The notes beneath the pieces were generated by a model. It ran no database searches. It was not told the origin of the DNA and saw only the letters and a list, made by a program, of their open reading frames with translations. The position numbers were made by a program, and so were the translations under genes. From Ostreococcus lucimarinus (taxonomy: Eukaryota), in NCBI GenBank assembly GCA_000092065.1, contig CP000581.1: a DNA stretch of 64,000 bases. One strand, given 5' to 3'. Shown here piece after piece: positions 5,069-43,533 of the stretch (position 1 is the first letter of the stretch; each line of letters opens with the position of its first letter).

Positions 5069-7519
5069 ATGTCGACGACGCGAAGAAGCGCGCGATTGGG
5101 CTCGATGGCGAAAGATTCCGATGCCGAAACGTCCGGCGCGACGGTGGCGCTGAGCGATGCGCCCGTGGTGCGACGACGCGCGAGCGCACAGCGTAAACGC
5201 GAACGCTCGCCTGAAACGACGGAGGTGGCGCAGTCGAGCGCGAGATCGCGACCGCAGAGCTCTCGGCGGGCGTTGGCGTCGACGGCGAAGGCGGCGCGCG
5301 CGGCGGCGAGAAAGATGAAGGAAGCGGACGGTGATGGCGAGCACGACGACGATGACGTTCAAGGCACCGCTGGTGAAACCTCGGATGATCCCATGGAGAT
5401 CGTCCGCACGGATGGTGCGCTGGTGAACGCGTACGAGGCGACGAACATGGTTAAATCGGCGCTCGTTGCTGAATTCGAACGCCGAGGGGAAAAATTGATC
5501 GAGCTCGAGCGCGAGGCGCACGCGTTGAAACAGAAAACGAAGAGCGCGGAATCACTGTTAGCGGCGACGACGGCGGAGGTGGAGTCTTTGCGCGAGATGA
5601 AGTCAGATCATGAAAAGAGCAAGGTTGCGATGCGAGAGGAACTCGCCGAGGAGCGACAGGCGAACATGTTGGCGCTCGAGCGCGAGGTCGGACGCGCGTG
5701 CGAGGCAGAATCGCGCGTTAAAACGTTAGCCGAAGAGTTGTCCGCGATGAAAGAAACTTTGGCTGCGATCGAACGCGAACGTGCGGAGGATTCCGCTGAA
5801 GACGACGCCGAGCGCTATCCGAGCGATTTCGCGGAGAAAAACGCCGAGTTGGAGTACTCCGTCGCGTGTTTACAGGACGAAGTTTCGAATCTTAAGAAGG
5901 AAAATGTGTCTTTACAAGCACGCTTTCAAACGGTCGAGGCTGAGCGCGTGGAGGTGACGACGCGCGCGGAGCAAGCCGAAGAGGCGCTTCGCGAGTGCGA
6001 ATCCTTGGTGGCGCAGGCGGAAGCCACGGTGCTGGACATTAGAAGAGAAGCGGATGACGCCAAGCTCGCGCGAGGCGCGGATGGCGACGAAGAATCGAGT
6101 AAGATTATCGAAGACTTACGAGGGATGAACAGGACTTTACAAGAAGAGCTCAGAGTCGCGACTCGAGAAGCGGCGGAGGTGAAGACGTTGCGTCGCAAAG
6201 CTGAGTTCGCGGCGACGTGCGAAGAGCGCGCCATGGCTGCGGAATCGCGCGCGCTTCGCGCCGAGGCGAGCGTGATCGATACGTCATCTTTACAAGCACG
6301 ACTTTCAAAGCTCGAGTATCTCGAAAACGATTGGGCGTCAGTCATCGATCGTTTGTCGCCGGGGAGCGTAAAGGTGCCGTCAGATCTCGTCGAGCGCGTC
6401 ATCTCGCTCGAGACGCGTCTCACGTCGCAGACTGGCGAACAAGGAAAGATGATGTCCGATCTTGCGCAAGCTCAAATGAAAGAAACTGCGGCTACGCGTC
6501 GGGCCACCGAGGCCGAGGAAAAGTATCAGAAAATTGAATCCAGCGCCTCAAGCGCCGTCGAGGCGCTCGCCGTGGCGGAGCGTCAAATCGCGATGATGAA
6601 GGGGCAAGTCGAGAGCTTGAATAGAATCGTTAAGTCCTACGAAGACGAAGGTAACGCCGCGGCGGCAAGGAAATCGACTGAAAAGGAGAAATCCAAGGCT
6701 GCGTCCGATCGTGCGATGAAGGAGCTCGAAAAGCTACTCGCCCACGCGAAGGAACGAATCGCCGTGCTCGACGGCGAGTTGAGCGAAGCCAAGACGCGAG
6801 CCGAAACCGCCGAAGCCGCCGCGACAGCCGCGGCCGCGGCGTTGCCGGTGGAGAACCCAGTGACTCTTGCGCGCATCGAAACGCTCGAACGCGAGCGCGA
6901 AGAGCTGTTAGAGCGACTGAAAAGAGAGAGCGCACAGGAAGATGACTCTAAAGCCTTGAAGGTGCTTCACTTCAAATCCAACCCCGTCGCCTCGGCGATG
7001 CGAAGCGCGTTGGAAAAAGAAGTCGAATCGCTGCGAAGCGAAGCCGCTGGCTTGCGTGAGGCGTTGTCCAAGTTACAACAAGGTTCGGTAAGCTCCGCGA
7101 GCGAGGCCGACATGACCGTGATGAAGCGAAAATTGGAAGATTTGCAAAAGCGCGAACAGCGCCTGATGACTGTGTTCAAGCGTCAAATCTCCGCCTTTCG
7201 CGAGGCGTGCCACAAAATCTTTGGCTACAAGATTGAAATGAACGAAGACGCCGGCGCGTGTACGTTCACGCTCACTTCCGATTACGCCACTAACCCCACC
7301 GACGCCTTCGCGTTCAAGTACGACGATAAATCCAGCACGGTATCGCTCAAAGAAACCCCCTTCGTCGCCGCGCCGGAGATTCGGCGCAGCGTCGAAACCT
7401 TCGTCACGCGCATGCGTTCCATCCCAGCCTTCATCGCCAACCACACCATCGAGACCTTCAATCAACGCGACGACGACGTCGACGTCGACGACGACGGCGT
7501 CGACGCCATGGACGCGTGA
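5069..7519 (+). CDS. MAD1: spindle-assembly-checkpoint protein MAD1-like (long coiled coil + Mad1 C-terminal domain)
   Basis: The 816-aa ORF has an extended E/K/A/L-rich coiled coil. The C-terminus resembles the MAD1 C-terminal domain: VLHFKSNPVASAMRSALEKEVESLRSEAAGLREAL...MTVMKRKLEDLQKREQRLMTVFKRQISAFREACHKIFGYKIEM...FTLTSDYATNPTDAFAFKYD. The identification is recalled from memory. Confidence 0.6.
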   Translation: MSTTRRSARLGSMAKDSDAETSGATVALSDAPVVRRRASAQRKRERSPETTEVAQSSARSRPQSSRRALASTAKAARAAARKMKEADGDGEHDDDDVQGTAGETSDDPMEIVRTDGALVNAYEATNMVKSALVAEFERRGEKLIELEREAHALKQKTKSAESLLAATTAEVESLREMKSDHEKSKVAMREELAEERQANMLALEREVGRACEAESRVKTLAEELSAMKETLAAIERERAEDSAEDDAERYPSDFAEKNAELEYSVACLQDEVSNLKKENVSLQARFQTVEAERVEVTTRAEQAEEALRECESLVAQAEATVLDIRREADDAKLARGADGDEESSKIIEDLRGMNRTLQEELRVATREAAEVKTLRRKAEFAATCEERAMAAESRALRAEASVIDTSSLQARLSKLEYLENDWASVIDRLSPGSVKVPSDLVERVISLETRLTSQTGEQGKMMSDLAQAQMKETAATRRATEAEEKYQKIESSASSAVEALAVAERQIAMMKGQVESLNRIVKSYEDEGNAAAARKSTEKEKSKAASDRAMKELEKLLAHAKERIAVLDGELSEAKTRAETAEAAATAAAAALPVENPVTLARIETLEREREELLERLKRESAQEDDSKALKVLHFKSNPVASAMRSALEKEVESLRSEAAGLREALSKLQQGSVSSASEADMTVMKRKLEDLQKREQRLMTVFKRQISAFREACHKIFGYKIEMNEDAGACTFTLTSDYATNPTDAFAFKYDDKSSTVSLKETPFVAAPEIRRSVETFVTRMRSIPAFIANHTIETFNQRDDDVDVDDDGVDAMDA

Positions 7520-7616
7520 TCACCGCTCATAGTTTATAGCGCGGCGCCTCGAGCGCCGCTGTAAGACGCGCGCGCACGCCACATCCGCTCGCGTTCGATC
7601 GTCCTCGCGCGCGTCC

Positions 7617-8396
7617 ATGTTCGCCCTCGCGCCCGCGTTCGCGCCTCGCGCGCCCGCGTCTGGCGCGCCTCGCGCGTCTGGCGCGCGTCGCGTCGTCGTC
7701 GCGCGCGCCGCCGCGCCGTCGCCGTCGTCGTCGTCGTCGTCGCGTCGCGTCGCGCTCGCGCTCGCGTCGTCGCTCGCGGCGTTCCTGCGCCCGCGCGCGA
7801 GCGACGCGGCGTACGGCACGAGCGCCGGGGGTTCGAGCGACACCGACGCGAGCGACTTGACGTGGGGCACGTTCTACGGCGCGGCGAACCCGCCGGCGAC
7901 GTACGGGACCACGGGCGGGACGACGAAGTCGCTGGCGAAGTACTCGTACGACGTGCCGAGCTCGTGGGTCGAGGAAGCGACGACGAAGGTGGAGAAGGGA
8001 AGCGGCGGACAAGACTCTCGATGGGTGAAGAGAGGCTCGCGAGGAGAGGAAAAAGCGTACCTGCTGACGCTGAACAGGGCGGGTCAGGATGGGGCGGCGT
8101 TCGAGCTCACGGACGCGTCGCTGCAAGCCGTGGCGGGAGCGCTCAGCGAGATGCAAGATTCGATCGCGTCGGGACGCGTGACGAGTCGACGCGATACCGA
8201 GGACGGTAGGGAGTACGCGCTGTTCGATGTCGACGCCGATCGAAAGTACACGGTGAAGATCTCGATCGACAACACCGGGAGACTGTTCGCGTTCGTCGTC
8301 ACGGCGCCGGCTTCGCAGTTTAATCGCGATAAAAAGGTGCTCGATAGAATGGTGGATTCGTTTCGGATTTACACCAGCGCGTCTCAGTTTGTGTAA
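7617..8396 (+). CDS. PsbP-like / PsbP-domain thylakoid-lumen protein with twin-arginine signal
   Basis: The N-terminus looks like an Ala/Ser-rich transit peptide, followed by RRVALALASSLAAFLRPRA, which resembles an RR TAT signal. The PsbP-fold pattern is present: KYSYDVPSSWVEEA...EKAYLLTLNRAG ... RKYTVKISIDNTGRLFAFVVTAPASQFNRDKKVLDRMVDSFRIY. Confidence 0.5.
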   Translation: MFALAPAFAPRAPASGAPRASGARRVVVARAAAPSPSSSSSSRRVALALASSLAAFLRPRASDAAYGTSAGGSSDTDASDLTWGTFYGAANPPATYGTTGGTTKSLAKYSYDVPSSWVEEATTKVEKGSGGQDSRWVKRGSRGEEKAYLLTLNRAGQDGAAFELTDASLQAVAGALSEMQDSIASGRVTSRRDTEDGREYALFDVDADRKYTVKISIDNTGRLFAFVVTAPASQFNRDKKVLDRMVDSFRIYTSASQFV

Positions 8397-20945: not shown

Positions 20946-23180
20946 CTACAAATGTCTACCGGCCACGCGGTGGGGCTCGGGAATGAGCGCCTTGGTGCGC
21001 GATAATCGAGCTACCGTGACGAGCTTGTTGTCGATGGGAATGCTCGGATCGGCGAGCTCCAAGACGTCGATGCGCACCGAACGCCACTCGTCTCGCGAAA
21101 AGAGATGTTGATGACGTTGAATGGCCTGGTACAATGAATTCAAGGCGTAAATTAACATGCCTTGCTGCACCGATCGACGCTCAGCGATCTTTAAGCTGGT
21201 TAAGGCGCGCTCGGCTTCGTGAAGGAGCATGCGCATCTCTTCCCGATGTTTCGAGCGACGACGATGAGCGGAGAGCGAGAGCGACGCCTTCATCGCGAGC
21301 ACCGTGGTGTACATGCCGAGAGCCGCGGGAAAACAAGCCATGAGGGAAAAGTTAAGGCGGTTCGCCCGCATGAGTTGATCCATTTGCATCAACGCACCTT
21401 CCATCTCTACTTTCATGACTTGCGTTTGTAGGAGAAGCAGTTGCATGAGATCTCCTGCGAGCATGTTCGTCAGCGGACTCTTGAGTTCTTCTTCGACACG
21501 AGCCGTCACGAGGCGCGTCGGGTCGGGGGTGACTAAGACCTTTTCTTCGCCCTCACCTTTGCTTCCGCCGCCCACGGACTTGTATGCGCGATAGAGAGAT
21601 TCAGAGTAACCCGGTCTCGACGCTTGTTTCGTGTATTCACCGAGCATGCGATCAAGAGACGCCTTACTTTCTTCCAATCTCTCTATCGCGTCGTCCGGGC
21701 GATCTGAGACAAACGCCGCCTTGAGCTCATCTCGCAACTCTTTCACGGGATCGAGAATGCGCATCTTCAGGAACGTGATGAATGCAGCCTTCGCCGCGTG
21801 TAACGTGTTATCCAGATCATCGCTTCCACACAGGCGACTGTGACGAATCATCACCGTCGTCGAAATCACAAACGTCGCGCTGCCAATCGTGTACAGCAAC
21901 CACCGTCTGACGTGCTTCGACGGCTTCGCGTGAACCTCCAAAGCATCGTGCGATGAGTCGCGAACTTCCGACCACTCTTGCTCGACGCGATTCAACGCCT
22001 GCCAAATCGTATCATTCACCTTTGGCAGAGAAAGTGGCCGACCGTTGACGACGAGAGGCTGTCGGAAGCGATGCGCGACCGCGGCGTCTTCGGGCTGCTT
22101 GCTCAAGTCCATGCTCGCCAACCGCTGCAAGCGGCTCAAAGGACGCGTCGGTCCCGGAGACAGATCGCGATCAAAGTCACCACTCGATCGCGTACTCGAC
22201 CGTGGTGTGGGCTCGGGCAAATCGGGCATCATATCTCGCAACCGCTTACCGTGACTCAATCGATGCAGAGACTTTAACAACTTTGGCGAGTCTCTCGCCG
22301 CGAGCCGCGACGAATTTGACACTTTTGCCAAGTCTCCCACGGTTTCTCTCGACTTCGTCGCGTACTCTTTCACTTGTTCTAAACACTCTAATAAGCCATC
22401 CGTGGCCTCGATGATCGCCTGCCGCGTCATCTCTCTCGACTCACCGCCCATGCTCGCGCTCAACGAACTCTCCCCGCTCGCGTTTGCGACGGTGTCCGCG
22501 TGATGATGCACGCGGCCGACGACGCTGGCCAAGCTCACCTGCAACTCATTCAACGCGTTCACTCGCCCATCGATGATCACTCGCGCGCTCGCGCTCGGAA
22601 GCGCAAACTTTGCGTCCGTCCCGTTCAACGCCGCGCGCGCGTGACACCATAAACGATACGTCCCTTCCCTCGCGAGCGCCACGAAATTACTCGGCCCCGT
22701 GTTGAACAGCAAAAACCGCGCCTGCCCGCTCGGTCGATCTCTCAACACCTCCCAAAAGCTCAGCGAGCTCGTCGCGACGTGTAAATCAAGCAACAACTCC
22801 CGACTCATGTCCTGCGCGAAAAACAACGTCGCTCGCGCGGCGTGTCCGAGGTCGCTCGCCTCGCTCGCCTCCTCCGCTCTGCTTTCGTCGCCGTCGAGCG
22901 CCGCCGACACCGCGAACGCGTCCCTCCACCACACCGCGCTCGCGCCCGTGCGTCCATCCTTATCGAAAAACACCGGCAGCGATTTCACCGCGCGCGCGCT
23001 CCTCGCGCCGCGCTCTCGCGCCCTCGCGCGCGCGTGCGTCGCTCGCTTTCGCAGCTCCTTGGCCACGTCCCAAAACGACCCGTGCTCCCCTCGCGCCCGG
23101 CGCTTCTCCTCGGCGGCGTCCAGGACGTCGCGCGCGACGTCCCTGAACAACCGCCGCACCGGCGGTCCGTCGCTCGCCAT
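20946..23180 (-). CDS. membrane protein of unknown function, possibly NCA2-like (nuclear control of ATPase 2 family) - weak
   Basis: The coding frame has normal composition from MASDGPPVRRLF... onward. It has hydrophobic segments (WLLYTIGSATFVISTTVMI; LMACFPAALGMYTTVLAM) and a conserved-looking C-terminus (QQGMLIYALNSLYQAIQRHQHLFSRDEWRSVRIDVLELADPSIP). The NCA2 assignment is a weak recollection. The ORF 5' end was trimmed from 23816 to the ATG at 23178-23180, because the upstream 212 codons are Arg-rich shadow and overlap the divergent JmjC gene. Confidence 0.3.
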   Translation of the reverse strand: MASDGPPVRRLFRDVARDVLDAAEEKRRARGEHGSFWDVAKELRKRATHARARARERGARSARAVKSLPVFFDKDGRTGASAVWWRDAFAVSAALDGDESRAEEASEASDLGHAARATLFFAQDMSRELLLDLHVATSSLSFWEVLRDRPSGQARFLLFNTGPSNFVALAREGTYRLWCHARAALNGTDAKFALPSASARVIIDGRVNALNELQVSLASVVGRVHHHADTVANASGESSLSASMGGESREMTRQAIIEATDGLLECLEQVKEYATKSRETVGDLAKVSNSSRLAARDSPKLLKSLHRLSHGKRLRDMMPDLPEPTPRSSTRSSGDFDRDLSPGPTRPLSRLQRLASMDLSKQPEDAAVAHRFRQPLVVNGRPLSLPKVNDTIWQALNRVEQEWSEVRDSSHDALEVHAKPSKHVRRWLLYTIGSATFVISTTVMIRHSRLCGSDDLDNTLHAAKAAFITFLKMRILDPVKELRDELKAAFVSDRPDDAIERLEESKASLDRMLGEYTKQASRPGYSESLYRAYKSVGGGSKGEGEEKVLVTPDPTRLVTARVEEELKSPLTNMLAGDLMQLLLLQTQVMKVEMEGALMQMDQLMRANRLNFSLMACFPAALGMYTTVLAMKASLSLSAHRRRSKHREEMRMLLHEAERALTSLKIAERRSVQQGMLIYALNSLYQAIQRHQHLFSRDEWRSVRIDVLELADPSIPIDNKLVTVARLSRTKALIPEPHRVAGRHL

Positions 23181-23285
23181 CGCGCGTCGCGAGGCGACGC
23201 GCGTCGCGCTCTGGCGTCGCCGCTCGCCCGCCGTCGCGTCGACCGGGACGGTCGCGTCCCGCACCGCGCGACGCGCGCGCCCGCG

Positions 23286-25139
23286 ATGCGCGCGGCGTCG
23301 ACGGCGTCGACGGCGTCGACGTCGGCGCCCTCGACGTCGGCGCCGACGCTCGGCGCGCGCGCGGCCGGCGCGCGCGCGCGCGTCGCCGTCGCGCTCGGTC
23401 GACCGCTGCGACCGAACGCGCGACGCGCGACGCTGAAGCCGCCGCCGATCGACCTCGAGGGAGGGGCGCCGACGGCGTGCGCGGAGATTGATTACGAACG
23501 CGACGTCGTCGCGGCGAACGTCGGCGCGCGCGCGCTCGGGGAAGCGCTCGCGCGGTTGCGCGAACCGCTGGTGGTCAGGGGCGGCGCGAAGGCGTGGCGC
23601 GCGAGCGGTCGGTGGACGCTGGAGACGCTCGTGCGAGAATACGGCGATTGGCGGTGCGACGTGCGCGTGATAGCGTCGCCGGAGACGAACGATGGACGGG
23701 AGTTCGTGTACTGCGAGGAGTCGCACGAGGCGGTGCGAGAGGGAAAGTTCGCGGCGCCGAGCGCGACGGCGACGATGGATTTCGCGACGGCGGCGGCTAA
23801 AGTTTTGAGATTTCACGGCGATGGGGCGTACGTGCAGTCAAAAATATCGGAGAAAATGACGCTGGAATGCGTCGGGGGAGTGAGCGATGCGTTCGGCGCG
23901 CTCGGTGAGGAGTCGCAGGAGCGCAGGCTGTGGCTCGCGCTCGCCGGGTCGGTGTCGCCGATGCATTTCGACGCGTCGACGAGCACGTTGGTCCAAGTCG
24001 GCGAAGGAACGAAGCGCATGCTTTTGTATCAACCATTCGCGCTTTCTGCGATTGACTTGTATCCAAATTGGCATCCTCTTCGTCGACGAGGAAGACGCTT
24101 CGCGCCGAAAGCCCTTGTTAGAGAGGCTATCATCGCGCCAGGAGACGCGCTCATTTTCCCTCCGCGCTGGGCGCACTACACTGAAAGTTGTGGCGATCGA
24201 GTGTCCGCATCGGTTACGCAGCGATTCAAGCACAGTCGCGGCATGAAGTACAGCGATGATATCGCAGGAAAATTTCAACGCTGGGCGAATAATCGCGACA
24301 GACCCAATGCGCTTGCGCGTCTCGTCTCCAGCGGGCTCGTGGAGTCTGACGTCGGCACAGTTTTGCCACGCAACGCACGCACGGGTGAAGTGATGCCGAT
24401 CGATTCGAGTGGTTGGGAAAGGTCGACAAATGTTGAGTGGCGCACTGCGGCGATCGAGTGCGCGACGATGATCAAAGAACACATCGCAGAGGGAGATTTA
24501 ATTGGGATTTATAGTCGTGGTTCCGTGGCAAATGGAACTGCGCGCAAAAATATTTCTGACGTTGACTTGATCGTCATCACTCGTCAACGCGGATTGGACG
24601 AAGACTTCGTGCGCGACGATTTACAGCAACGGTGGCTACCTCGTCACGCACACATGGTGAAGAAATGTGATGTTCGTTTTGAGTACGTCGCGTCGGAAGC
24701 AGAAATCGCAACGAGTGCTTCGGTGGATACTTTTGTCATCGCGACGCAAAGCGTAACCATTTTCGGATCACCCCTTCCAACTTCCCTGCCATCGAGCGCG
24801 CGAATTCCGAAGCCTCGAATTTTGGAAAGCGTGCAGGACGACGTCGACGCCGCGATTCGGCATGGTTCAGAACGCTCGCTCACGTGGGCGTTGAAACGTC
24901 TCATCAGGGCGTCCTACGAGAAGTATGCTTTGCCCGTTGATGGTGTTGAGTACACGAGAGATTTGTATCATTGCGTCAGATTAGCACTGCTGCACGCGAA
25001 TATTGATGTTACGAGCGAATTGACGACGGCCCTCGTGCTCTGCGTGCACTCGCCTCGTAAGGTGTGTGGCGATGTCTTGTGGAGAGCGCTGACCGAAGCC
25101 CTTTGTCGTCGTTTAGTAGCTGCGCTGAGTTGTATTTGA
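23286..25139 (+). CDS. JmjC-domain (cupin, Fe/2-oxoglutarate hydroxylase-type) protein fused to a C-terminal minimal nucleotidyltransferase (AadA/ANT-like) module
   Basis: The JmjC core has the Fe ligands HxD...H: LWLALAGSVSPMHFDASTSTLVQVGEGTKRMLLYQPF...GDALIFPPRWAHYTES. After a linker comes an NTase signature, DLIGIYSRGSVANGTARKNISDVDLIVIT (hG[GS]x9-13Dh[DE]h), then a helical tail: WALKRLIRASYEKYALPVDGVEYTRDLYHCVRLALLH. The ORF 5' end was trimmed from 22842 to the ATG at 23286. Confidence 0.6.
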   Translation: MRAASTASTASTSAPSTSAPTLGARAAGARARVAVALGRPLRPNARRATLKPPPIDLEGGAPTACAEIDYERDVVAANVGARALGEALARLREPLVVRGGAKAWRASGRWTLETLVREYGDWRCDVRVIASPETNDGREFVYCEESHEAVREGKFAAPSATATMDFATAAAKVLRFHGDGAYVQSKISEKMTLECVGGVSDAFGALGEESQERRLWLALAGSVSPMHFDASTSTLVQVGEGTKRMLLYQPFALSAIDLYPNWHPLRRRGRRFAPKALVREAIIAPGDALIFPPRWAHYTESCGDRVSASVTQRFKHSRGMKYSDDIAGKFQRWANNRDRPNALARLVSSGLVESDVGTVLPRNARTGEVMPIDSSGWERSTNVEWRTAAIECATMIKEHIAEGDLIGIYSRGSVANGTARKNISDVDLIVITRQRGLDEDFVRDDLQQRWLPRHAHMVKKCDVRFEYVASEAEIATSASVDTFVIATQSVTIFGSPLPTSLPSSARIPKPRILESVQDDVDAAIRHGSERSLTWALKRLIRASYEKYALPVDGVEYTRDLYHCVRLALLHANIDVTSELTTALVLCVHSPRKVCGDVLWRALTEALCRRLVAALSCI

Positions 25140-25196: not shown

Positions 25197-28100
25197 CTAC
25201 ATTTGCGCGAGGATAGCGCTCAAGGCCTCCGCATCGAGGCCCTTGAGTTCGCTCACGAATTGGGCGACTTGCGCGGCGCGTCCCTTGACCATGACATCCG
25301 CCATCACCTTATCAGAGCTGTTTTCAAGCAACGCAGCGACCGCACGGTCGTCGTTGGCGTTGACCCCCGAAGCAGCGATGGCATCTTCGACGAGAGCTTC
25401 GATTGACTTGTCGAGCTCAACGTCGCCAAGCTGCTCCTTGATCCTACTTGCTAACGCGTCCACGGCAAGTCTGCGCGTGAGCCTACCGTGGAAATAGCGG
25501 CGAGCGTTTTGCCACTCGACGACATCTCGAATGACTCCCTTGGCCTTCATGCGACCACTGCGATCGTGGAGATCGGCGAACTCGTGCGCGACTTGCGTGT
25601 ACATCGGCAAGAGGTTCGCTTCCCGCTTCTTGATCTCATCCTTGTTCTTCTCCGGATCCTCAGCCAAGTTGGCAAGGATCGGGTCCAACCGGTGCATCGC
25701 GGCGATCTGATCCTTGGAGCGGAACTTGACTTCGCAGATACCTGGCGGTTCGAGGATACCACCTCGAGATTCCTTATCCGCGTACATCTCCATTCTCGCT
25801 TCGTTGATGGTCGGGTCGACGACGACCCAAGCACCACCCCGAAGCTCACCGTTCGGCGGAATGTAGACGAACACCGGATGGCGGTACACTCGAAGTTCAT
25901 CGACAATCATCGCACCGAACTTCAAGATCTCTCCGTACATGTCCCGGGTACCGCCGCTGAAACCACGCCAGTTGGCAAAGATGAAGAGAGGCAAGTTTTC
26001 GGCGTTGTTGAAATCTCTGATAGCAGTCGCAGTCTTGTGAGCGCTGTCAGGGAACCACACTTGACCAGCTTGAGCCAAAACCGCTTCACGCGATTCCGGG
26101 TTGGCGGGGTCGGCGGGGATGCGTTGCTCCATCAAGCGAGTTTCGACGGCAATGACACCGCACGGAATACCACCAAGACGCGCTCGACCGGTGACAACGG
26201 ACTTACCCCAATCGGGCAACGTCTCAGTCCACGAGTTCACATCGAAGAAACCCTTAGCAAAAGCACCATTCGACTGCACACCCGCAAGCATGTTGCGAGG
26301 ATCGTACGGCGTCTTCGTCGGCATGAATTCAATGTCGCGATCGACCGGATCAGACGTGCGAAGCGCAGGCGCTTGCGACTTGGACGTGGCCGGAGTGTAC
26401 GACAACCACTTCAAGATGGACCGAACGCCCTCTTGGTCGTCAGACACTTGCAAGTGAGACACACCATTCGGCATCATGACTTGCGGGCCGCCGAGCTGAT
26501 CTTGGCTCGTGTAAACTTCACGGCCGAGCAGCTTGTTCAACGCCAAGTAACCGGTGAGGATGAGCGGACCATTCGTCATTTGAATGTTACGCTGGCCCAA
26601 GCGGCACAGGTAGGCACCGATACCGACAGATCGACCGGTGACGTAAGACAACGTGAAAGCGTCGGCGTACGCGGCGGATTGCTCGCCGGCAATCATACCG
26701 GAGCCTCGCAAGTTTTCGACACCGATGCCATGGATTTGACCGATGATGTCGGTAAGCTTCATGCGCGTTTCGCCACCCTCTACGATCTCTTCCGCCGCGA
26801 CGGTACCTTCCGGGAACACCTTATAATCGTCCGGAGTGAGGTAGAGGTACTTGAAACCCATGCCTGGATTGGAATCGTCAATCCACGCGATCTTGAAGTA
26901 CGGCTTGAGTTCCTCGACGAGACCGATGCGCGCGCCAGAGTTAGACGCGATGTACACTCGCGGCAAGCCCAAGTTGCGCGCATACTTGGAAACGGCGTCG
27001 TAGACATCGTCTTCCTTGACACCGAAAGAACCAGACATGTAGGTGCAATCATTACCGACGATGACGATTTCTCGGCCTTGGGGGTACTCGGGCGTTTTCA
27101 TAAAGCAATGCCAGCCAACCATGCCGACGTTGTTCGATCCCGCCGGGCGTTGTTCCTTCGTGAGCACTCCATCTTCGCCCAGGACGAGTTCGGAAGCACT
27201 GAAGAATTCACTTGGCATCGTACCACCGACATCGGCGACGTGAGCACGCCAGTCAAGAACCAAGGCCTTTTCGAAAAGACCGAGGAAGTCGAAAATGTAA
27301 GTCGTGCCGATCGCACGAGCCACGGCGCGCTTTTGTTGCAGAGCACCCGGTTGCGGATACGGCTCAAGGAAGCACGCTTGTTCTTCACCGTTCGGGCCGA
27401 GCATGCAGAACTGTTCGGCCTTGCCAGTCGTCGGCTCCAAATACTCCTTGTACATATCAACCTTCAACCACTGACCAGACATGGAGGTGGCCATGAGACG
27501 AAGCGGCACCTTCTCCTTGCCGACGCGGACGCGGATCTCAATTTCATCCACTCGTCGCGCGAGCAAAGACGCAGACTCGCGGCTGATGAAGTCGGCGAGC
27601 TTATTCTTCAGAGAAGAGATAGCAACGGAGAAGTTTTGTTCTTCGAGATGCGGCAAGAAGTTGACGTAAATTCTGGACGACGAAGCACCCTTGGCTCGGC
27701 TGTCCATCAGAGACAGAGACAACGCCTCGACGGCCTTGTCAAGAACACGCTCCAATCCGCCTTCCATGACATCCTTGGAATGAGAGAGACGGCGCAACAA
27801 CAAGTGCTTTGCTGGACCGCGCCGAGCACCGACCGAAGACTCACCGACGTACATGTGAAGATCACGGTTCACAGTCGGGAGACGAGTCAAGCCATAGTTC
27901 TCGAGACGAGCGAGTTCGAGAAGGTGAGCGACAGTGGGTCGTTCACCGCGGTACAGTAAGTCTTCCTTGAAATCCTTGGAAGAGTGGAACGTGTAGTACG
28001 ACGGAAGCTCGAGGTTCGCATACGCGAGAACGTTCACGAACTTAATGCCCATCGATTCAAGACGCGGCTTTTGCGTCGCGATGAAGGCCTCGAGATCACC

Positions 28101-31100
28101 CGGCAACGAATCGTCGGCGCTTTGTTGGCAAATTGCCACGTGAAGAACGTGCATTTGGTCGTTCGAAGCGCCGGCCGCCTTGATGGTGGCATCAAGTCGG
28201 TCCAAGATTGCGGTGAAACGCGACTTGGCTTCCGCAACATTGTCCACGCGCGCCAAAAGACCGCATCGGAGCGGGCTCTCATCCGGGAAAGTATTGAACT
28301 TGAACTGCCAGCTGATGGAAGTCATGCCATCATCGCGCGACACCGCGGTGCTGAGCACGTTGTGCGCACGGAAAACACGCTTGGCGTACACTTCAAGGGC
28401 AGCATTCTGCACCTTTTCATCCTTGTCCGCGAAGAGCGCAGGCAACAAATCAACGGCGAGAGTCGGCGACTCAACCAAAGACTGAAGACCACCCGCGCTT
28501 GCCTTGCCCCAGGTGCGCGACAACGGTTGCGAGCCGATGAGAATCTTCTTCAATTCTTCCAAGCGCTTGTCAATAGACGGCAAGCGACGCTCGATGAGAA
28601 TGTTGGACGCGACGACAGCGATATCGCCGTATTCGTTGCCGCGAAGCTTAGAGAGAGCTTCGATGTTTCCACGTAGAGAGTCGGAGATCGGGGCGTGATC
28701 GTCCGCCCATGAAATCGGACCTCGAGAAAGAACTCGCTGCGGCAAAGTCGGCGCTTGCTTCAATAGCGACAAGATGAGATCTTGACGCTGCTTGGATCGC
28801 ATATGCGCACGAACCTGATTCAACACCGGGGTCAAGTTGCTACTGTTCGAGCGAATCAATTGTTGCATGACAGCATCCATCGGCTTGCCTTCAAACACGC
28901 TTTCGACGCTGAGGTAACGTTGAATGATTTGCTCGAGCACAGTCGTCGCTCGTTCCCATCGGCCTTGATCTGCCGGAAGAGCAGTGAGGCAGTTGAACAA
29001 GTCAGAAACACATTCATCCGCATCGAGCTCATAACCGTCTAAGAGTAAGTTTACTCGCGCCACAGCAGCTTCGAGAGCTTCCTCCGGACCCGCCGGAGTA
29101 GACTCATCGGCGGGGATGCGAAGCGCACCAGAGAAAGTGCTGATCTTCTTTACCTTGCTCGGATCCTTCAACTCAAGCGACGCAAGCAAGTCACCGGCTT
29201 CGATAACGGCGCCAGCAGACTTGGCGTGAGACACATTGCCGCTTTCAGTGGCGATGAGGGGCATAACCATCTTCATCGCTTCGACTTCGGCGAACGGCTT
29301 CCCAGCCACGACTTCAGCACCGTCGTCTTGGAGGAAGCGAATGAGCTTACCAGTGACGTCGGTGCGAAGCTCAGATGGGTCGAAAACGTTCGGCAGTAGC
29401 CAAGTTTGACCGTCAAGAATCATTCTCAAGCCAAGCGGTTCCTCGAGACCCTCGACCTCGTGTTGTTCACCACCGAAAGTACCGACGAGGGCGCCATCCG
29501 GACGCTCGCGAAGCTTGGCTTCGATCTTCTGGCCTTCCGGAGTGACAATGCAGAAAGTATCCGGGCCCGGTCGAGTCACTTCGAAAGAGTACTTCGTGTC
29601 CTGGTACGTGATTTCGACCGGAAAGCGAATCATCTTGTCGACACCTTGCACAGACACCTGGCCCTTTTGCCAGAACTCCGTAAAGGCGCTCTCTTCAGCC
29701 TTCGCCATGTTGAAAGCACGGAACAAAGCAGCACCGACCACAATCATGTGCGGGTCTTGCTTGTTGGCGATTTCCTTCTTCGCGATCAACCCGTCCAACC
29801 AAGAGGTGTCGATGGTATTATCCTTGAACTCACCCGTTTCGAGAAGCTGAACCAAGTACTCGACGGCGGTGCGGATTTCACCGCGCACGACCATGCCCTT
29901 GAGAGCGAGCACGAGCGCCTTGCGCGCTTCGTTACGGGTTTTGCCAGATGCAAAGATGTGACCGAACTGGGAATCCGCAAACTCGTGTACGCCCCCATTG
30001 GTGCCGACAGAGAAGTAACCCCACACGTTGGGCGTAGACTGGAACTGCACGCGCTCGATGCCACCAGACGTCGGCTTGAAACCTTCATCCGGGTTCTCGG
30101 CGGTGATGCGCGCTGCGATGACGTGAGTTTGCGGCAAGATGTAATCTTCTTCCATGAAGTCAATACTGTCCGTCGTTTCCGTGTCACGCCCGTAAAAGGT
30201 TCGAATTTCCGGGATGCGCTCGAGCGGAATACCCATGGCAACTTGCAACTGCGTCGCGGGAAGGTTGACACCAGTGATGCCTTCCGTCACCGGGTGCTCG
30301 ACTTGCAAACGCGGGTTGAGTTCAAGGAAGAAGTACTTGTCTGTCGCTGCGTTGTACAAGTACTCAACCGTACCAGCACCAATGTAACCAATATTCTTTG
30401 TCAAACGCTGCGCTGCCTTTTCCATTTCTCTGAAAATTTCCGGCTTGGCAATCGTCGGAGGACCTTCCTCAAAGATCTTCTGGAATCGACGCTGCGTGGA
30501 GCAATCACGACCGTTCAAGGCAATGGCATTACCGTACTCGTCACCGACAATTTGCACTTCCAAGTGACGCGCCTGCGTACAAAGCTGCATCATGAACATC
30601 GGCGAGCCCGGGACTTCAGCCTTGACTTGCTCAAAGTTTGTTCGAAGCTGCTCTTCATCCGCGCTCATACGAATACCCTTACCACCACCACCTTCAGACG
30701 CTTTCAACATGACCGGGAAACCGATGCGTTTCGCCGCCGCGACGCACTCCTCGACCGTCGTGACCATCGCCTTGTTGAAAATTTCTTCCGGAATCGTGCC
30801 CTCCTCCGTCAACTCTGCGACGAGACCGTCGCCAGACCACGGAATAGACGGAACCTTGGCGGTTTGCGCCAAAATATTGGCCGCAATCTTATCGCCTAGC
30901 ACGCTCATCACCGGCGCAGTCGGGCCGATGAATTGCACGCCGATCGCCTTGAGCGAAGTCGGGAGCTTTGGATTCTCGGAAGCGTGACCCCATCCCGGCC
31001 AAACCGCGTCGACGCCTTCGCGCTTGGCGATTTCTGTGATCAAAGGCACGTTGGCGTAGTTGTTCTTGTTCGAACCACCCGGAACTTCGACGTAGTCATC

Positions 31101-31729
31101 CGCGAAACGGATAAACTCGGCGTTCGCCGCGATGTCCTCCGGGGTCGCCATGGCCAAGAATTGAATTGCGTTTTCATCCCCGAACGTGTTAAACGCCCAA
31201 CGCCGCATCGAGAGAATGCTCTTCGTCGCCGCCATACCGTTGTTCGCGATCAACACCTTACGAATCACCCGTTTCCCTCCTCTTTCAGCCACATACTTGG
31301 CCAACGCATCCGCGCTCGACGCTGAAGCCGTGCTCGCCGCCGAATCCGCGACGGCGTCGCGCGCCTGCGCGTCGCCGCGCTTCGTCGCGCGCGCCACGCC
31401 GACGCGTCGCGCCGAGTCCGCCCTGCGCACGCACGCGCGCGCCGACGTCCCCTTCTTCACGTCACCCAAAACTACGCGCGCTCGCACGAGTTCGCGTCCT
31501 CGTCAGTCTTCCGCTCTCCGCGTTCGCGCGCCGACCTAGGTTTCATCCACTCCACCTTATCGAATAACGGGATGCCGTTGGTTTCGATCGCGCGCGATCG
31601 CTCGTCGCCTCGCGCGCGCGCTTCGCCTCGCCGCGCGCATCGTTCGCCGCGCGAACAAAAAAACGTACACTTCGTCTTCGTCGATACCGCACGCGCGGCA
31701 CCGCACGCGCGCTGCGTCGCGGGCGCCAT
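25197..31729 (-). CDS. ACC: homomeric multidomain acetyl-CoA carboxylase (biotin carboxylase - BCCP - carboxyltransferase), main exon 25197..31480 plus putative small 5' exon 31693..31729
   Basis: The 2096-aa ORF has all ACCase domains in order: KVLIANNGMAATKSILSMRRWAF... (BC), EAMKMVMPL (biotinyl Lys) and CT blocks. The main exon is certain. The track ORF begins with GTG. There is no in-frame ATG before the BC domain, and an in-frame stop lies 5 codons upstream. The branch-like motif aagactgacg sits 22-31 nt before two candidate AG acceptors at the ORF 5' end. The candidate exon 1 is ATGGCGCCCGCGACGCAGCGCGCGTGCGGTGCCGCGC (MAPATQRACGAA), with donor GTGCGG at 31692/31693 and phase 1. The exon 1 placement is tentative. 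Confidence 0.9.
31481..31692 (-). other. putative 5' intron of ACC (approximately 212 nt)
   Basis: It is inferred from the missing ATG, the upstream in-frame stop, the GACTGAC branch-like motif at about 31502-31508, AG acceptors at 31481/31482 or 31472/31473, and a GTGCGG donor candidate. Alternative donors would be GTGCCG (exon 1 of 28 nt) or others. Confidence 0.35.
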
Positions 31730-41851: not shown

Positions 41852-42193
41852 TCACGTCCCGCGCACGTCAAACCTCAAGTCTTCAAGCTTCAACCCAGCC
41901 TCGGCGAGGGATTGCTTCACCGCCATCTGATCGCTCACCGTCTTGATCCTTCGCGCGATATCGTCCACGGTCATGCGATGGACGTTAAACTGATCGCGCG
42001 CGCCGCTCGCGAACTCCACCGCGACGACCGGCGGCGCGGCGTCGTTGCGCACGCGCGGCTCGACGGCGCACTCGGGGTTGGATTTCGCCGCCTTCGCCGT
42101 GGTGACGCGGGCGAGGAACTCGCGCGCAGCCGTGCTGCGAGGATCGAGCGGGTTGAATTGCACGCGCACGCGCTTCAGGTGGCGCAAGGGCAT
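41852..42193 (-). CDS. MRPL53: mitochondrial ribosomal protein L53 (MRP-L44 family)
   Basis: The 113-aa protein reads MPLRHLKRVRVQFNPLDPRSTAAREFLARVTTAKAAKSNPECAVEPRVRNDAAPPVVAVEF.... It aligns with human MRPL53: [59 protein letters not shown]. The ORF 5' end was trimmed from 42325 to the ATG at 42191-42193. Confidence 0.55.
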   Translation of the reverse strand: MPLRHLKRVRVQFNPLDPRSTAAREFLARVTTAKAAKSNPECAVEPRVRNDAAPPVVAVEFASGARDQFNVHRMTVDDIARRIKTVSDQMAVKQSLAEAGLKLEDLRFDVRGT

Positions 42194-42383
42194 GGAACGG
42201 GCGAACGCGCGGGTGACGACGCGCGCCCTCGAGTGCGGCGACGACGAACGGGACGACGGAGGTCGACGAGACGAGGGCGCTCGGATGGGGAATGAAGGAA
42301 TATTATACTGAATATTGAACCGCACACTGTGTGTCTATCTAGTTAACGCTATTGACTGCGTCCTACGCGAGCGCCGGTCGAAA

Positions 42384-43415: not shown

Positions 43416-43533
43416 CCCGCGCGGCGTCGCGCGCGCGGGGCGTCGCGCGGCGTCGCGCGCGCGCTGTGACGCGCGCGCGACGTCGCGCGTCCCGGCGACG
43501 GCGCCGACGCGCGACCGCACGGCGCGGCGCGCG

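What the first reader, a model, noticed from the sequence alone, without database searches (positions are those of the whole stretch)
23286..25139. JmjC hydroxylase domain fused to an AadA/ANT-like minimal nucleotidyltransferase
One uninterrupted ORF of normal composition joins two modules. The first is a small JmjC cupin with an intact Fe-binding triad (MHFDAS...WAHYTES). The second is a textbook minimal nucleotidyltransferase motif (GIYSRGSVANGTARKNISDVDLIVIT) followed by a helical tail, resembling aminoglycoside 3''/9-adenylyltransferase (AadA) or MNT-type NTases. I do not know of a described eukaryotic JmjC-NTase fusion. It could couple oxidative modification with nucleotidylation of a protein or RNA substrate, or it could be a horizontally acquired bacterial-type module.
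Basis: partly seen in the sequence, partly recalled or inferred. Interest (0 to 1): 0.65.

Follow-up and report, generated by a model that had tools for sequence, protein, structure and literature searches.

The report
Algal FIH-type hydroxylase fused to nucleotidyltransferase
This is a real, single Ostreococcus gene that joins an oxygen-dependent hydroxylase (closest to the animal oxygen sensor FIH) to a bacterial-type nucleotide-transferring enzyme built like the antibiotic-resistance enzyme AadA; many algae keep the pair fused, in either order, so the two enzymes almost certainly work together, on a target nobody has identified.

Summary
Window 23286-25139 (+) is one 617-codon gene, identical to Ostreococcus lucimarinus XP_001415546.1 ("predicted protein").

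- **N-terminal half:** an intact JmjC/Cupin_8 oxygenase. Its family profile matches FIH far better than any other solved JmjC enzyme (E 1e-34, against JMJD5 at 1.5e-20).
- **C-terminal half:** an intact nucleotidyltransferase (G412-S413, D425, D427, D462) followed by a HEPN-like four-helix tail. Two fold-search programs both rank AadA, ANT(9) and ANT(4') first.
- **Not an AadA family member:** it scores about 20 bits against curated cut-offs of 340-545. It belongs instead to an uncharacterised family of bacterial stand-alone proteins of about 270 aa.

The fusion is kept in every Ostreococcus-type orthologue. It also occurs in the reverse order (transferase first) in Chlorella, Scenedesmus, Tetraselmis, Pterosperma, Pedinophyceae, Prasinoderma, Klebsormidium, Mesostigma and a haptophyte. 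Both catalytic centres are conserved throughout.

My best reading is a bifunctional enzyme that makes a hydroxyl group and then nucleotidylates it. The substrate and the order of the two steps are inferred, not shown. I found no paper describing this fusion. It is a new variant of known kinds, of moderate interest.

The parts
23181..23285 (.). 105-bp divergent intergenic region between this gene and the NCA2-domain gene on the minus strand, which starts at 23180
   Evidence: NCA2 start MASDGPPVRR verified. Gene calls on independent metagenome contigs agree.
23286..25139 (+). Complete single-exon CDS: 617 codons plus stop. FIH-type JmjC hydroxylase fused to an AadA-architecture nucleotidyltransferase.
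23286..23462 (+). Variable Ala/Ser/Thr/Arg-rich N-terminal region, residues 1-59. It is poorly conserved apart from a predicted helix at 22-36 and the invariant residues R46, P52 and P53.
   Evidence: Mean pairwise identity 0.34. pLDDT is below 50 for residues 1-17 and 85-92 for residues 21-40. Alignment.
23463..24239 (+). JmjC / Cupin_8 double-stranded beta-helix oxygenase domain, residues 60-318, FIH-like
23964..23972 (+). H227-F-D229: first two Fe(II) ligands (HxD), equivalent to FIH H199 and D201
   Evidence: Invariant in A1 and A5. Mapped through the FIH alignment. Coordinates verified.
24012..24014 (+). K243: predicted to bind the C5 carboxylate of 2-oxoglutarate (FIH K214). Y182 (23829-23831) and S224 (23955-23957) correspond to FIH Y145 and T196.
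24072..24089 (+). H263-P-L-R-R-R268: the 'HP' connector motif of the FIH family followed by an arginine cluster. R267 aligns with FIH R238. R268 replaces FIH Q239.
   Evidence: R267 and R268 are invariant in both domain orders. Alignment to FIH. HP motif as an FIH1-family feature: PMC2938197 Table 1.
24174..24176 (+). H297: third Fe(II) ligand (FIH H279)
24240..24386 (+). Conserved linker, residues 319-367. It has two short predicted helices and the invariant residues W333, R362, T366 and G367.
24387..24785 (+). Nucleotidyltransferase core (MNT / pol-beta type), residues 368-500. It begins with the N-terminal extension that bacterial stand-alone homologues share.
   Evidence: The bacterial family profile A3 matches residues 368-588 at 101 bits. 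Pfam NTP_transf_2. C-terminal model pLDDT 92.
24516..24566 (+). R411-G412-S413 ... S424-D425-V-D427: the hG[GS] and DxD catalytic motifs
   Evidence: R411, G412, S413, S424, D425 and D427 are conserved in all or nearly all of 120 family sequences. Coordinates verified.
24669..24671 (+). D462: third catalytic carboxylate on strand 3. It is Glu in most stand-alone and transferase-first forms.
   Evidence: D or E in 118 of 120 sequences. Predicted strand at 461-467.
24786..25136 (+). HEPN-like helical tail, residues 501-617. It carries the family signature W534, K537, R538, R541, E545 and T557-R-D-L560, but no Rx4-6H RNase motif.

Best explanation
Window 23286-25139 encodes one polypeptide with two catalytically competent enzymes.

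1. A 2-oxoglutarate/Fe(II) hydroxylase of the FIH branch of the JmjC superfamily.
2. An NTP-dependent nucleotidyltransferase with the two-domain build of AadA, ANT(9) and kanamycin nucleotidyltransferase: an MNT-type catalytic core plus a HEPN-like helical bundle. It belongs to an uncharacterised family whose stand-alone members are bacterial proteins of about 270 aa.

The two modules form an obligate pair. Many green-algal lineages and at least one haptophyte keep them fused, in both possible orders, with both active sites conserved.

**Most likely mechanism (inferred).** The two sites act in sequence on one substrate. The hydroxylase installs a hydroxyl group on an unactivated carbon. The transferase then O-nucleotidylates that new hydroxyl, probably by AMPylation, as ANT enzymes do on the sugar hydroxyls of aminoglycosides.

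The hydroxylase pocket is unusually basic: R266-R267-R268, with R268 replacing the Gln that FIH uses to hold its Asn substrate. The target is therefore probably acidic (an Asp/Glu-type side chain, or a phosphate-bearing group) rather than asparagine.

**How far each step is established.**
- Shown: gene reality, both domain identities, intact catalytic residues, and conservation of the pair in two orders.
- Inferred: catalytic activity, sequential action, order of the steps, nucleotide used, and substrate.
For: **Single gene.**
- It is one ORF, identical to XP_001415546.1.
- Twenty relatives at 47-62% identity keep it as one ORF with a conserved linker.
- Independent assemblies call the same 617-aa gene.

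**Hydroxylase half.**
- Pfam Cupin_8 and JmjC_2 score above their cut-offs.
- The profile matches FIH at E 1e-34 over nearly its full length.
- The Fe triad H227/D229/H297 and the 2OG ligands Y182/S224/K243 are conserved.

**Transferase half.**
- The model has pLDDT 92.
- The Foldseek top 15 are all AAD(9), AadA or ANT(4'), at E 2e-5 to 5e-4.
- The catalytic residues G412, S413, D425, D427 and D/E462 are conserved in nearly all of 120 sequences.

**Obligate pairing.**
- Of the 150 best cluster representatives, 13 are hydroxylase-first and 23 are transferase-first.
- The transferase-first order lies in a single ORF in L005.
- It is also seen in MMETSP transcript-derived proteins of Tetraselmis and Pterosperma.
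- The taxa span Chlorophyta, Prasinodermophyta, streptophyte algae and a haptophyte.
- The whole-protein AlphaFold model has pTM 0.80. That is higher than expected for two freely tethered domains; this last point is my inference.

**Precedent for the logic.** The JmjC survey PMC2938197 records FIH1-family fusions to a sulfotransferase in Monosiga, and yW-hydroxylase fusions to other enzymes of their own pathway.
Against: - No biochemical or expression data exist for this protein.
- The order of the two reactions, the nucleotide and the substrate are all unknown.
- Bacterial stand-alone homologues of the transferase are not generally linked to a JmjC gene. Only 1 of 8 contexts examined shows a link, and that JmjC is of a different subfamily, JmjC_2. 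The transferase therefore does not need a hydroxylase-made acceptor in bacteria.
- The transferase signature residues are the same in fused and stand-alone forms. That could mean its substrate pre-exists without hydroxylation.
- I could not inspect model coordinates or PAE, so I do not know how the two active sites sit relative to each other.
- The fused-versus-stand-alone split in the transferase tree has only 37/100 bootstrap support.
Confidence: 0.55

Rival explanations
1. Small-molecule tailoring or detoxification. Both domains act on a metabolite or xenobiotic, such as an aminoglycoside-like or peptide natural product made by associated bacteria. The transferase inactivates or activates it as ANT enzymes do, and the oxygenase oxidises the same compound. 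No protein substrate is involved.
For: - The best structural matches of the transferase half are all small-molecule O-nucleotidyltransferases: AadA, AAD(9), ANT(4') and LinB.
- One bacterial family member sits co-directionally inside an NRPS operon, next to an MFS transporter, in Caldimonas brevitalea.
- PMC2938197 reports bacterial FIH1/yW-clade JmjC genes in NRPS neighbourhoods.
Against: - The protein fails every curated ANT family threshold, and Pfam DUF4111 is not detected.
- The hydroxylase half is specifically closest to a protein hydroxylase, FIH.
- Wide, old conservation across free-living algae with single copies looks more like a housekeeping or regulatory role than a resistance gene.
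- The other bacterial contexts examined show no biosynthetic cluster.
Confidence: 0.2
2. Regulatory coupling rather than a two-step pathway. The transferase nucleotidylates the hydroxylase domain itself, or is controlled by it, so that hydroxylase activity responds to ATP or oxygen status. Known parallels are MntA AMPylating HepT and adenylyltransferase control of glutamine synthetase.
For: - The transferase core matches MNT antitoxins, and the tail matches HEPN toxins, which form an AMPylation pair.
- The high whole-model pTM of 0.80 suggests a fixed domain interface.
- FIH-type enzymes are oxygen-dependent (established knowledge).
Against: - The HEPN-like tail is fused in the AadA manner, as part of the transferase's own fold. 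It lacks the Rx4-6H motif and the conserved Tyr context of HepT; H562 is not conserved.
- The MntA model scores 12.5-14.6 bits against a cut-off of 60.
- Stand-alone bacterial members work without any JmjC partner.
Confidence: 0.12
3. An RNA-directed enzyme. The JmjC domain hydroxylates a modified nucleoside, as TYW5 does on tRNA-Phe, and the transferase adds nucleotides to, or nucleotidylates, the same RNA.
For: - yW hydroxylases are known to fuse with partner enzymes of their pathway in chlorophytes.
- The basic R266-R268 cluster would suit a phosphate backbone.
Against: - FIH, at 123 bits, is a far better match than TYW5, at 43 bits.
- No RNA-binding domain is detected.
Confidence: 0.08
4. 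Annotation artefact. These are really two adjacent genes, or a gene with an intron, read as one ORF in a GC-rich genome that is poor in stop codons.
For: Long spurious ORFs do occur in this window, for example the 823-aa ORF antisense to ACCase. No transcript data were available for Ostreococcus itself.
Against: - The reading frame is continuous in about 20 diverged orthologues.
- The linker contains invariant residues: W333, R362, T366 and G367.
- The fusion recurs in the opposite order in a single ORF and in transcript-derived proteins of other algae.
- The NCBI gene models of O. lucimarinus and O. tauri are the same length as the ORFs.
Confidence: 0.02

Closest known systems
FIH / HIF1AN (factor inhibiting HIF, asparaginyl beta-hydroxylase; PDB 1H2K and others)
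   Same: - It is the best-scoring solved relative of the N-terminal half: 123.7 bits, E 1e-34, nearly full length.
- It has the same Fe triad and the same 2OG ligands (Tyr, Thr/Ser, Lys).
- It has the same 'HP' connector motif.
   Different: - FIH Gln239, which holds the target Asn amide, is an invariant Arg here (R268), inside an RRR cluster.
- The alignment ends at FIH residue 292, so FIH's C-terminal dimerisation helices are not matched. The linker and transferase follow instead.
- FIH is not fused to a nucleotidyltransferase.
AadA / ANT(3'')(9), AAD(9) and ANT(4') kanamycin nucleotidyltransferase (PDB 7UY4, 6SXJ/6XZ0, 5G4A, 6FZB, 1KNY)
   Same: - They share the two-domain build: an MNT-type nucleotidyltransferase core followed by a helical bundle.
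- They share the G-S, DxD and third-carboxylate catalytic pattern.
   Different: - Sequence identity is only 14-16%.
- NCBIfam ANT models score 15-22 bits against cut-offs of 340-545, and Pfam DUF4111 gives no hit.
- TM-scores are about 0.5.
- ANT enzymes are stand-alone bacterial resistance enzymes; this protein is fused to a hydroxylase in a eukaryote.
Uncharacterised bacterial stand-alone nucleotidyltransferases of about 270 aa (for example Caldimonas brevitalea P0314, on genome CP011371)
   Same: - This is true family membership. The bacterial profile matches window residues 368-588 at 101 bits, covering profile positions 9-239 of 268.
- Shared signature: YxRGSVA, SDxD, W..KR..R...E and YTRDL.
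   Different: - The bacterial members stand alone, with variable gene neighbours.
- None has a known function.
MntA-HepT (MNT-HEPN) type VII toxin-antitoxin pairs (PDB 5YEP, 7AE2, 8XEH)
   Different: - The two parts are fused in one chain, as in AadA.
- The tail has no Rx4-6H motif.
- The MntA model scores 12.5-14.6 bits against a cut-off of 60.
Hydroxylase-plus-transferase fusions: the FIH1-sulfotransferase fusions of Monosiga and the yW-hydroxylase fusions to TYW2/3/4 (PMC2938197); collagen lysyl hydroxylase LH3/PLOD3 with its glycosyltransferase domains (own knowledge)
   Same: They follow the logic proposed here. An oxygenase is fused to the enzyme that acts next on the same substrate; in LH3 the transferase decorates the hydroxyl that the oxygenase has just made (for the first two; LH3 from my own knowledge).
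   Different: The partner enzyme here is a nucleotidyltransferase, which the JmjC survey does not record. The resemblance is by analogy only and has not been tested.

Membership tests
JmjC / Cupin_8 2OG-Fe(II) oxygenase superfamily | Profile match above the curated threshold | tested here: met
   Cupin_8 scores 50.3 bits (cut-off 27.4) and JmjC_2 scores 25.8 bits (cut-off 22).
JmjC / Cupin_8 2OG-Fe(II) oxygenase superfamily | HxD...H iron-binding triad and a 2-oxoglutarate-binding Lys | tested here: met
   H227, D229 and H297 are invariant in every alignment. K243 is invariant in A5 and conserved in 15 of 16 sequences in A1. All four map to FIH H199/D201/H279/K214.
JmjC / Cupin_8 2OG-Fe(II) oxygenase superfamily | Double-stranded beta-helix fold | tested here: met
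FIH1 (HIF1AN) family | Closest to FIH among JmjC families | tested here: met
   Profile A5 scores FIH at 123.7 bits, JMJD5 at 77, JMJD7 at 54 and TYW5 at 43.
FIH1 (HIF1AN) family | [quoted passage not shown] | tested here: met
   H263 and P264 are invariant in 16 orthologues and align with the FIH HP. Feature taken.
FIH1 (HIF1AN) family | Gln239 (with Arg238) positioning the substrate Asn side chain | tested here: not met
   R267 aligns with R238, but Q239 is replaced by the invariant R268. The role of Q239 is from my own knowledge of the FIH-HIF complex.
FIH1 (HIF1AN) family | C-terminal helical dimerisation region | tested here: inconclusive
   The profile alignment stops at FIH residue 292. 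Two short helices (326-334 and 342-348) follow the barrel before the transferase. Their equivalence to the FIH helices was not established.
FIH1 (HIF1AN) family | Asparaginyl, aspartyl or histidinyl beta-hydroxylase activity on HIF or ankyrin repeats | not testable with these tools
   Needs a biochemical assay.
Pol-beta-type / MNT nucleotidyltransferase superfamily | hG[GS] motif, [DE]x[DE] motif and a third carboxylate on the next strand | tested here: met
   G412-S413, D425-x-D427 and D462 are conserved in nearly all of 120 sequences. NTP_transf_2 scores 22.5 bits (24.2 for the C-terminal half alone) against a cut-off of 21. The strand positions in the model fit.
AadA / ANT(3'')/ANT(9) aminoglycoside nucleotidyltransferases | Two-domain fold: transferase core plus C-terminal helical domain | tested here: met
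AadA / ANT(3'')/ANT(9) aminoglycoside nucleotidyltransferases | Score above the curated NCBIfam family thresholds | tested here: not met
   ANT_9 scores 20-22 bits (cut-off 340) and ANT(3'')-Ic scores 15-17 bits (cut-off 545).
AadA / ANT(3'')/ANT(9) aminoglycoside nucleotidyltransferases | C-terminal domain matching Pfam DUF4111, which I recall as the AadA C-terminal domain | tested here: not met
   DUF4111 is not listed in the Pfam scan even at E up to 10.
AadA / ANT(3'')/ANT(9) aminoglycoside nucleotidyltransferases | Adenylylation of streptomycin or spectinomycin | not testable with these tools
   Needs an enzyme assay or a resistance test.
MNT-HEPN (MntA-HepT) toxin-antitoxin | HEPN Rx4-6H RNase motif and an MntA-family match | tested here: not met
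   The tail has T557-R-D-L-Y-H562, which is Rx3H, and H562 is not conserved. The MntA model scores 12.5-14.6 bits against a cut-off of 60.
Uncharacterised bacterial ~270-aa nucleotidyltransferase family (alignment A3) | Near-full-length profile match and shared signature residues | tested here: met
   The match is 101 bits, covering profile positions 9-239 of 268 and window residues 368-588. W534, K537, R538, R541, E545 and T557-L560 are conserved in all three classes.

The most novel reading that the evidence does not exclude
The fusion carries out a two-step modification not described so far: FIH-type C-hydroxylation of an acidic side chain in a protein (or of a comparable group in a metabolite), followed directly by O-nucleotidylation (AMPylation) of the new hydroxyl. 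If so, green algae and some haptophytes have a new oxygen- and ATP-dependent post-translational mark, written by a single enzyme.
Probability: 0.2. Interest if true: 0.8.

Novelty: new variant of a known kind. Interest (0 to 1): 0.5.

Why it matters
- **A strong hint of a shared pathway.** JmjC-only hydroxylases (FIH, JMJD5, JMJD7, TYW5) modify signalling and translation components. Nucleotidyltransferases of the AadA/MNT type O-adenylylate hydroxyl groups. A fusion kept in both orders across much of the green lineage is strong comparative evidence that two enzymes share a pathway.
- **It points to unexplored chemistry.** The implied reaction, hydroxylation coupled to nucleotidylation, has no characterised example that I could find.
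- **It gives a handle on an unknown bacterial family.** The roughly 270-aa bacterial nucleotidyltransferases have no assigned function, and this is a first functional clue.
- **It extends the survey of FIH-family fusions.** That survey lists kelch and sulfotransferase partners but no nucleotidyltransferase.
- **It is testable.** Ostreococcus tauri is genetically tractable, and the protein is a compact single-exon gene.
- **Limits.** The gene is already annotated in public databases as a predicted protein, and no function is demonstrated here.

Tried and rejected
1. **Membership in the ANT/AadA resistance families.** Rejected: NCBIfam scores are about 20 bits against cut-offs of 340 or more, and DUF4111 is not detected.
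2. **A catalytic HEPN RNase tail or an MntA-HepT module.** Rejected: there is no Rx4-6H motif, and the MntA model scores below its cut-off.
3. **A known anti-phage defence protein.** PADLOC gives only motif-level hits of 14-19 bits to CD-NTase cyclases.
4. **A conserved bacterial JmjC + transferase operon.**
   - One striking case exists: in L008 a 418-aa JmjC_2 gene abuts the transferase gene.
   - That JmjC shows no specific similarity to the algal one.
   - Seven other contexts show no JmjC.
   - It is therefore not a general rule.
5. **Viral origin or viral carriage.** No relative was found in IMG/VR.
6. **Loss of a catalytic Asp in O. tauri.** The representative P0004 has D427Y, but the O. 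tauri reference proteins and five other cluster members have Asp. The Tyr is a singleton variant.
7. **Profile-based locus search in bacterial genomes.** Alignments A3 and A4 were too divergent for the tool. The single-protein scan returned one locus.
8. **AFDB50 fold search.** The library was not available.
9. **Sequence-only search of the C-terminal half against PDB.** It gave only motif-level hits, such as CdnD and OAS2 at E of 0.01 or worse. Structure prediction was needed.
10. **A clean evolutionary history of the domain order.** In the neighbour-joining tree of the transferase domain, neither order is monophyletic, and support is weak. The number of rearrangements stays open.
Full report
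**1. The observation**

The + strand carries an uninterrupted ORF that ends at the stop codon 25137-25139. The ORF is open from a GTG at 22842, but the first in-frame ATG is at 23286, which gives a 617-residue protein.

ORF length is not evidence in this window. The window is about 60% GC, and an 823-aa ORF runs antisense to the neighbouring acetyl-CoA carboxylase gene. Homology is what makes the gene real:
- Pfam Cupin_8 scores 50.3 bits (cut-off 27.4).
- Pfam JmjC_2 scores 25.8 bits (cut-off 22).
- Pfam NTP_transf_2 scores 22.5 bits (cut-off 21).

The protein is identical over all 617 residues to Ostreococcus lucimarinus CCE9901 XP_001415546.1 / UniProt A4RRC2. That record is annotated 'predicted protein' or 'JmjC domain-containing protein', and JGI calls it 'predicted nucleotidyltransferase'. 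The O. tauri orthologue is Q01GB0 / OUS42629.1, one copy of which is named 'hypoxia-inducible factor 1, alpha subunit inhibitor'. Independent marine metagenome assemblies call the same 617-aa gene between the same neighbours.

The gene sits 105 bp from a divergently transcribed NCA2-domain gene. It is 57 bp from the stop codon of the convergent 2096-aa acetyl-CoA carboxylase gene.

**2. One gene, conserved as a unit**

Twenty full- or near-full-length relatives at 47-62% identity keep both halves in a single ORF.

In a 16-sequence alignment, invariant columns are spread over both halves and over the linker (W333, R362, T366, G367, E368, W377). Mean pairwise identity by region:

| Region | Mean pairwise identity |
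|---|---|
| Variable N-terminus | 0.34 |
| Hydroxylase domain | 0.57 |
| Linker | 0.43 |
| Transferase core | 0.49 |
| Helical tail | 0.52 |

Neither half is decaying. Longer relatives of 880-1050 aa, with low-complexity inserts, also keep both domains.

**3. The N-terminal half is an FIH-type JmjC hydroxylase**

The single sequence finds FIH and JMJD5 only weakly, at E about 2e-5. A profile built from 14 hydroxylase halves, taken from both fusion orders (A5), separates the candidates clearly:

| Solved structure | Bits | E-value |
|---|---|---|
| FIH | 123.7 | 1e-34 |
| JMJD5 | 77 | 1.5e-20 |
| JMJD7 | 54 | 1.8e-13 |
| TYW5 | 43 | 4.5e-10 |

The FIH match covers profile positions 6-238 of 247 and FIH residues 57-292.

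Mapping through the FIH alignment gives these equivalences:
- The Fe ligands H199/D201/H279 correspond to H227/D229/H297.
- The 2OG ligands Y145/T196/K214 correspond to Y182/S224/K243.

The residues on the algal side are conserved. The 'HP' connector motif that PMC2938197 lists as the FIH1-family feature is present as the invariant H263-P264.

There is one clear difference. FIH R238-Q239 aligns with R267-R268. From my knowledge of the FIH-HIF complex, Q239 holds the amide of the target asparagine. Here that position is an invariant Arg inside an R266-R267-R268 cluster. The domain is therefore FIH-like and predicted to be active, but its pocket is not that of an asparagine hydroxylase. A basic pocket suggests an acidic or phosphate-bearing target; this is an inference.

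**4. The C-terminal half has AadA architecture and belongs to an uncharacterised bacterial family**

Sequence searches alone give only motif-level hits:
- CdnD, OAS2 and MNT in PDB, at E of 0.01 or worse.
- ANT(9) at 20-22 bits against a cut-off of 340.
- ANT(3'')-Ic at 15-17 bits against a cut-off of 545.
- MntA at 12.5-14.6 bits against a cut-off of 60.

- The core alone matches MNT (8.3), kanamycin nucleotidyltransferase (8.2), HalB (8.1) and LinB (7.3).

Foldseek agrees independently. Its top 15 hits are all AAD(9), AadA or ANT(4'), at E 2e-5 to 5e-4, probability 1.00 and TM about 0.5.

The catalytic pattern is complete:
- G412-S413.
- D425-x-D427.
- D462 on the next strand; this position is Glu in most relatives.

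The tail has no Rx4-6H RNase motif.

An exhaustive profile search over 1.84 billion cluster representatives found 853 relatives at E of 1e-3 or better. Most of the best 150 are stand-alone proteins with a median length of 271 aa. They have only an NTP_transf_2 Pfam hit and no curated family. Named examples, all labelled 'hypothetical protein', are from Caldimonas brevitalea, a Pseudomonas and a Saprospiraceae MAG.

A profile of 30 such proteins matches window residues 368-588 at 101 bits, covering profile positions 9-239 of 268. The signature (YxRGSVA, SDxD, W..KR..R...E, YTRDL) is shared by the stand-alone forms and both fused forms.

**5. The unexpected part: the pair is fused in both orders across algae**

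Among the 150 best representatives, 13 are hydroxylase-first and 23 are transferase-first. The hydroxylase domains of the transferase-first proteins belong to the same FIH-like subfamily; E-values against the Ostreococcus-type hydroxylase profile reach 1e-30 to 1e-42.

The transferase-first order is not a gene-model artefact:
- In locus L005 it lies in one continuous ORF, 5515-8256.
- It is present in transcript-derived (MMETSP) proteins of Tetraselmis and Pterosperma.

Named carriers:

| Order | Taxa |
|---|---|
| Hydroxylase-first | Ostreococcus lucimarinus, O. tauri, Pycnococcus provasolii |
| Transferase-first | Chlorella variabilis, Scenedesmus sp., Tetraselmis sp., Pterosperma sp., a pedinophyte, Prasinoderma coloniale, Klebsormidium nitens, Mesostigma viride, and a cluster containing a Chrysochromulina tobinii (haptophyte) fragment |

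In a neighbour-joining tree of 120 transferase domains, the fused forms separate from the stand-alone forms in the best tree. Bootstrap support is only 37/100, and neither order is monophyletic. The number of fusion or permutation events is therefore open.

No relative was found in viral contigs.

**6. Bacterial context**

I examined eight neighbourhoods of stand-alone homologues:
- In L008, the transferase gene starts at the base after the stop of a 418-aa JmjC_2 gene. That JmjC has no specific similarity to the algal hydroxylase.
- In Caldimonas brevitalea, the gene lies co-directionally inside an NRPS operon, between a CMD-family gene and an MFS transporter.
- The other six show nothing consistent.

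The hydroxylase-transferase partnership is therefore essentially a eukaryotic (algal) invention. The bacterial enzyme does not depend on a JmjC partner.

**7. How it most likely works**

- **Shown:** it is one gene; the two domain identities; intact catalytic residues in both; and conservation of the pair in two orders over a wide span of algae.
- **Inferred:** because the two enzymes are kept together whatever their order, they act on one substrate or in one pathway.

The simplest chemistry follows from what each enzyme type does. JmjC hydroxylases convert C-H to C-OH. AadA, ANT and MNT enzymes transfer NMP onto hydroxyl groups. So the hydroxylase would create the acceptor, and the transferase would O-nucleotidylate it.

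The same 'oxidise, then decorate' logic has precedents:
- FIH1-sulfotransferase fusions and yW-hydroxylase fusions, both recorded in PMC2938197.
- Collagen LH3/PLOD3 (my own knowledge).

The whole-model pTM of 0.80 suggests a defined interdomain arrangement, but I could not inspect coordinates or PAE.

I put about 0.8 on 'bifunctional, both sites active, functionally coupled'. I put about 0.3 on the specific 'hydroxylate, then nucleotidylate' sequence. The stated overall confidence of 0.55 reflects the combined claim.

The rivals are small-molecule tailoring or detoxification, regulatory auto-nucleotidylation, an RNA substrate, and an annotation artefact. Each is set out with its evidence in the rival list.

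**8. Comparison with what is known, and novelty**

Full-text searches for JmjC combined with nucleotidyltransferase, and with Ostreococcus, green algae, fusion, FIH or the UniProt accession, returned nothing relevant.

The comprehensive JmjC survey PMC2938197 notes the FIH1 family in chlorophytes and lists kelch and sulfotransferase fusions. It states that, among intracellular members of this clade, the only known fusions are those of the yW hydroxylases and a nematode Jmjd5-acetyltransferase. It does not mention a nucleotidyltransferase.

The gene itself is in public databases with partial domain labels, so the sequence is not new. What is new:
- The recognition of a conserved FIH-type hydroxylase and AadA-architecture transferase pair.
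- Its occurrence in both orders.
- Its breadth across algae.
- The assignment of the transferase half to an uncharacterised bacterial family.

I rate it a new variant of known kinds, with interest 0.5. It is a good, testable lead to possibly new modification chemistry, but no function is demonstrated.

Noticed in passing
window 22842-23285 (+) and 25488-27959 (+): The ORF of this gene stays open for 148 codons upstream of its first ATG, running antisense over the 5' end of the NCA2-domain gene. A separate 823-aa ORF runs antisense to the acetyl-CoA carboxylase gene. Both look like stop-poor GC-rich antisense frames rather than genes, so ORF length is unreliable in this window.
   Followed up: partly
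window 20946-23180 (-) and 25197-31487 (-): The neighbours are an NCA2-domain gene (divergent, 105-bp spacer) and a 2096-aa homomeric acetyl-CoA carboxylase (convergent, 57 bp between the stop codons). This very tight gene packing recurs on several metagenome contigs.
   Followed up: partly
L008 651-2744 (Logan SRR14271355, 2.9-kb contig): A 418-aa JmjC_2 (cupin-4 type) gene ends at the base before a 278-aa stand-alone member of the transferase family starts. It looks like a split, operon-style hydroxylase + transferase pair, but the JmjC is of a different subfamily. This was the only such case among eight contexts.
   Followed up: partly
L014 9597-12109 (Caldimonas brevitalea CP011371, about 5.04 Mb): A bacterial member of the transferase family overlaps the preceding CMD-family gene by 4 nt. 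It lies inside an NRPS operon, followed by an MFS transporter, an adenylating enzyme, a thioesterase and a LysE exporter. This suggests a role in tailoring a natural product, or in self-resistance, for that member.
   Followed up: partly
L005 5515-8256 (JGI metagenome 3300007522): A single 913-codon ORF in a GC-rich eukaryote-like contig (its neighbours include RPS19 and CAAD-domain genes) encodes the transferase first and the FIH-like hydroxylase second. The organism was not identified.
   Followed up: partly
P0004 residue 416 (equivalent to window D427): One metagenomic O. tauri-type sequence has Tyr in place of the second catalytic Asp. The O. tauri reference proteins and five other cluster members have Asp, so this is a rare variant or an assembly error.
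   Followed up: yes
P0268 / P0269 (Pycnococcus provasolii): Two public gene models for what is listed as one 90%-identity cluster differ greatly in length: 641 aa and 1000 aa. One of the models is probably wrong.
   Followed up: no
window 42001-44000: This stretch has the highest GC content in the window (0.711, against about 0.6 elsewhere).
   Followed up: no
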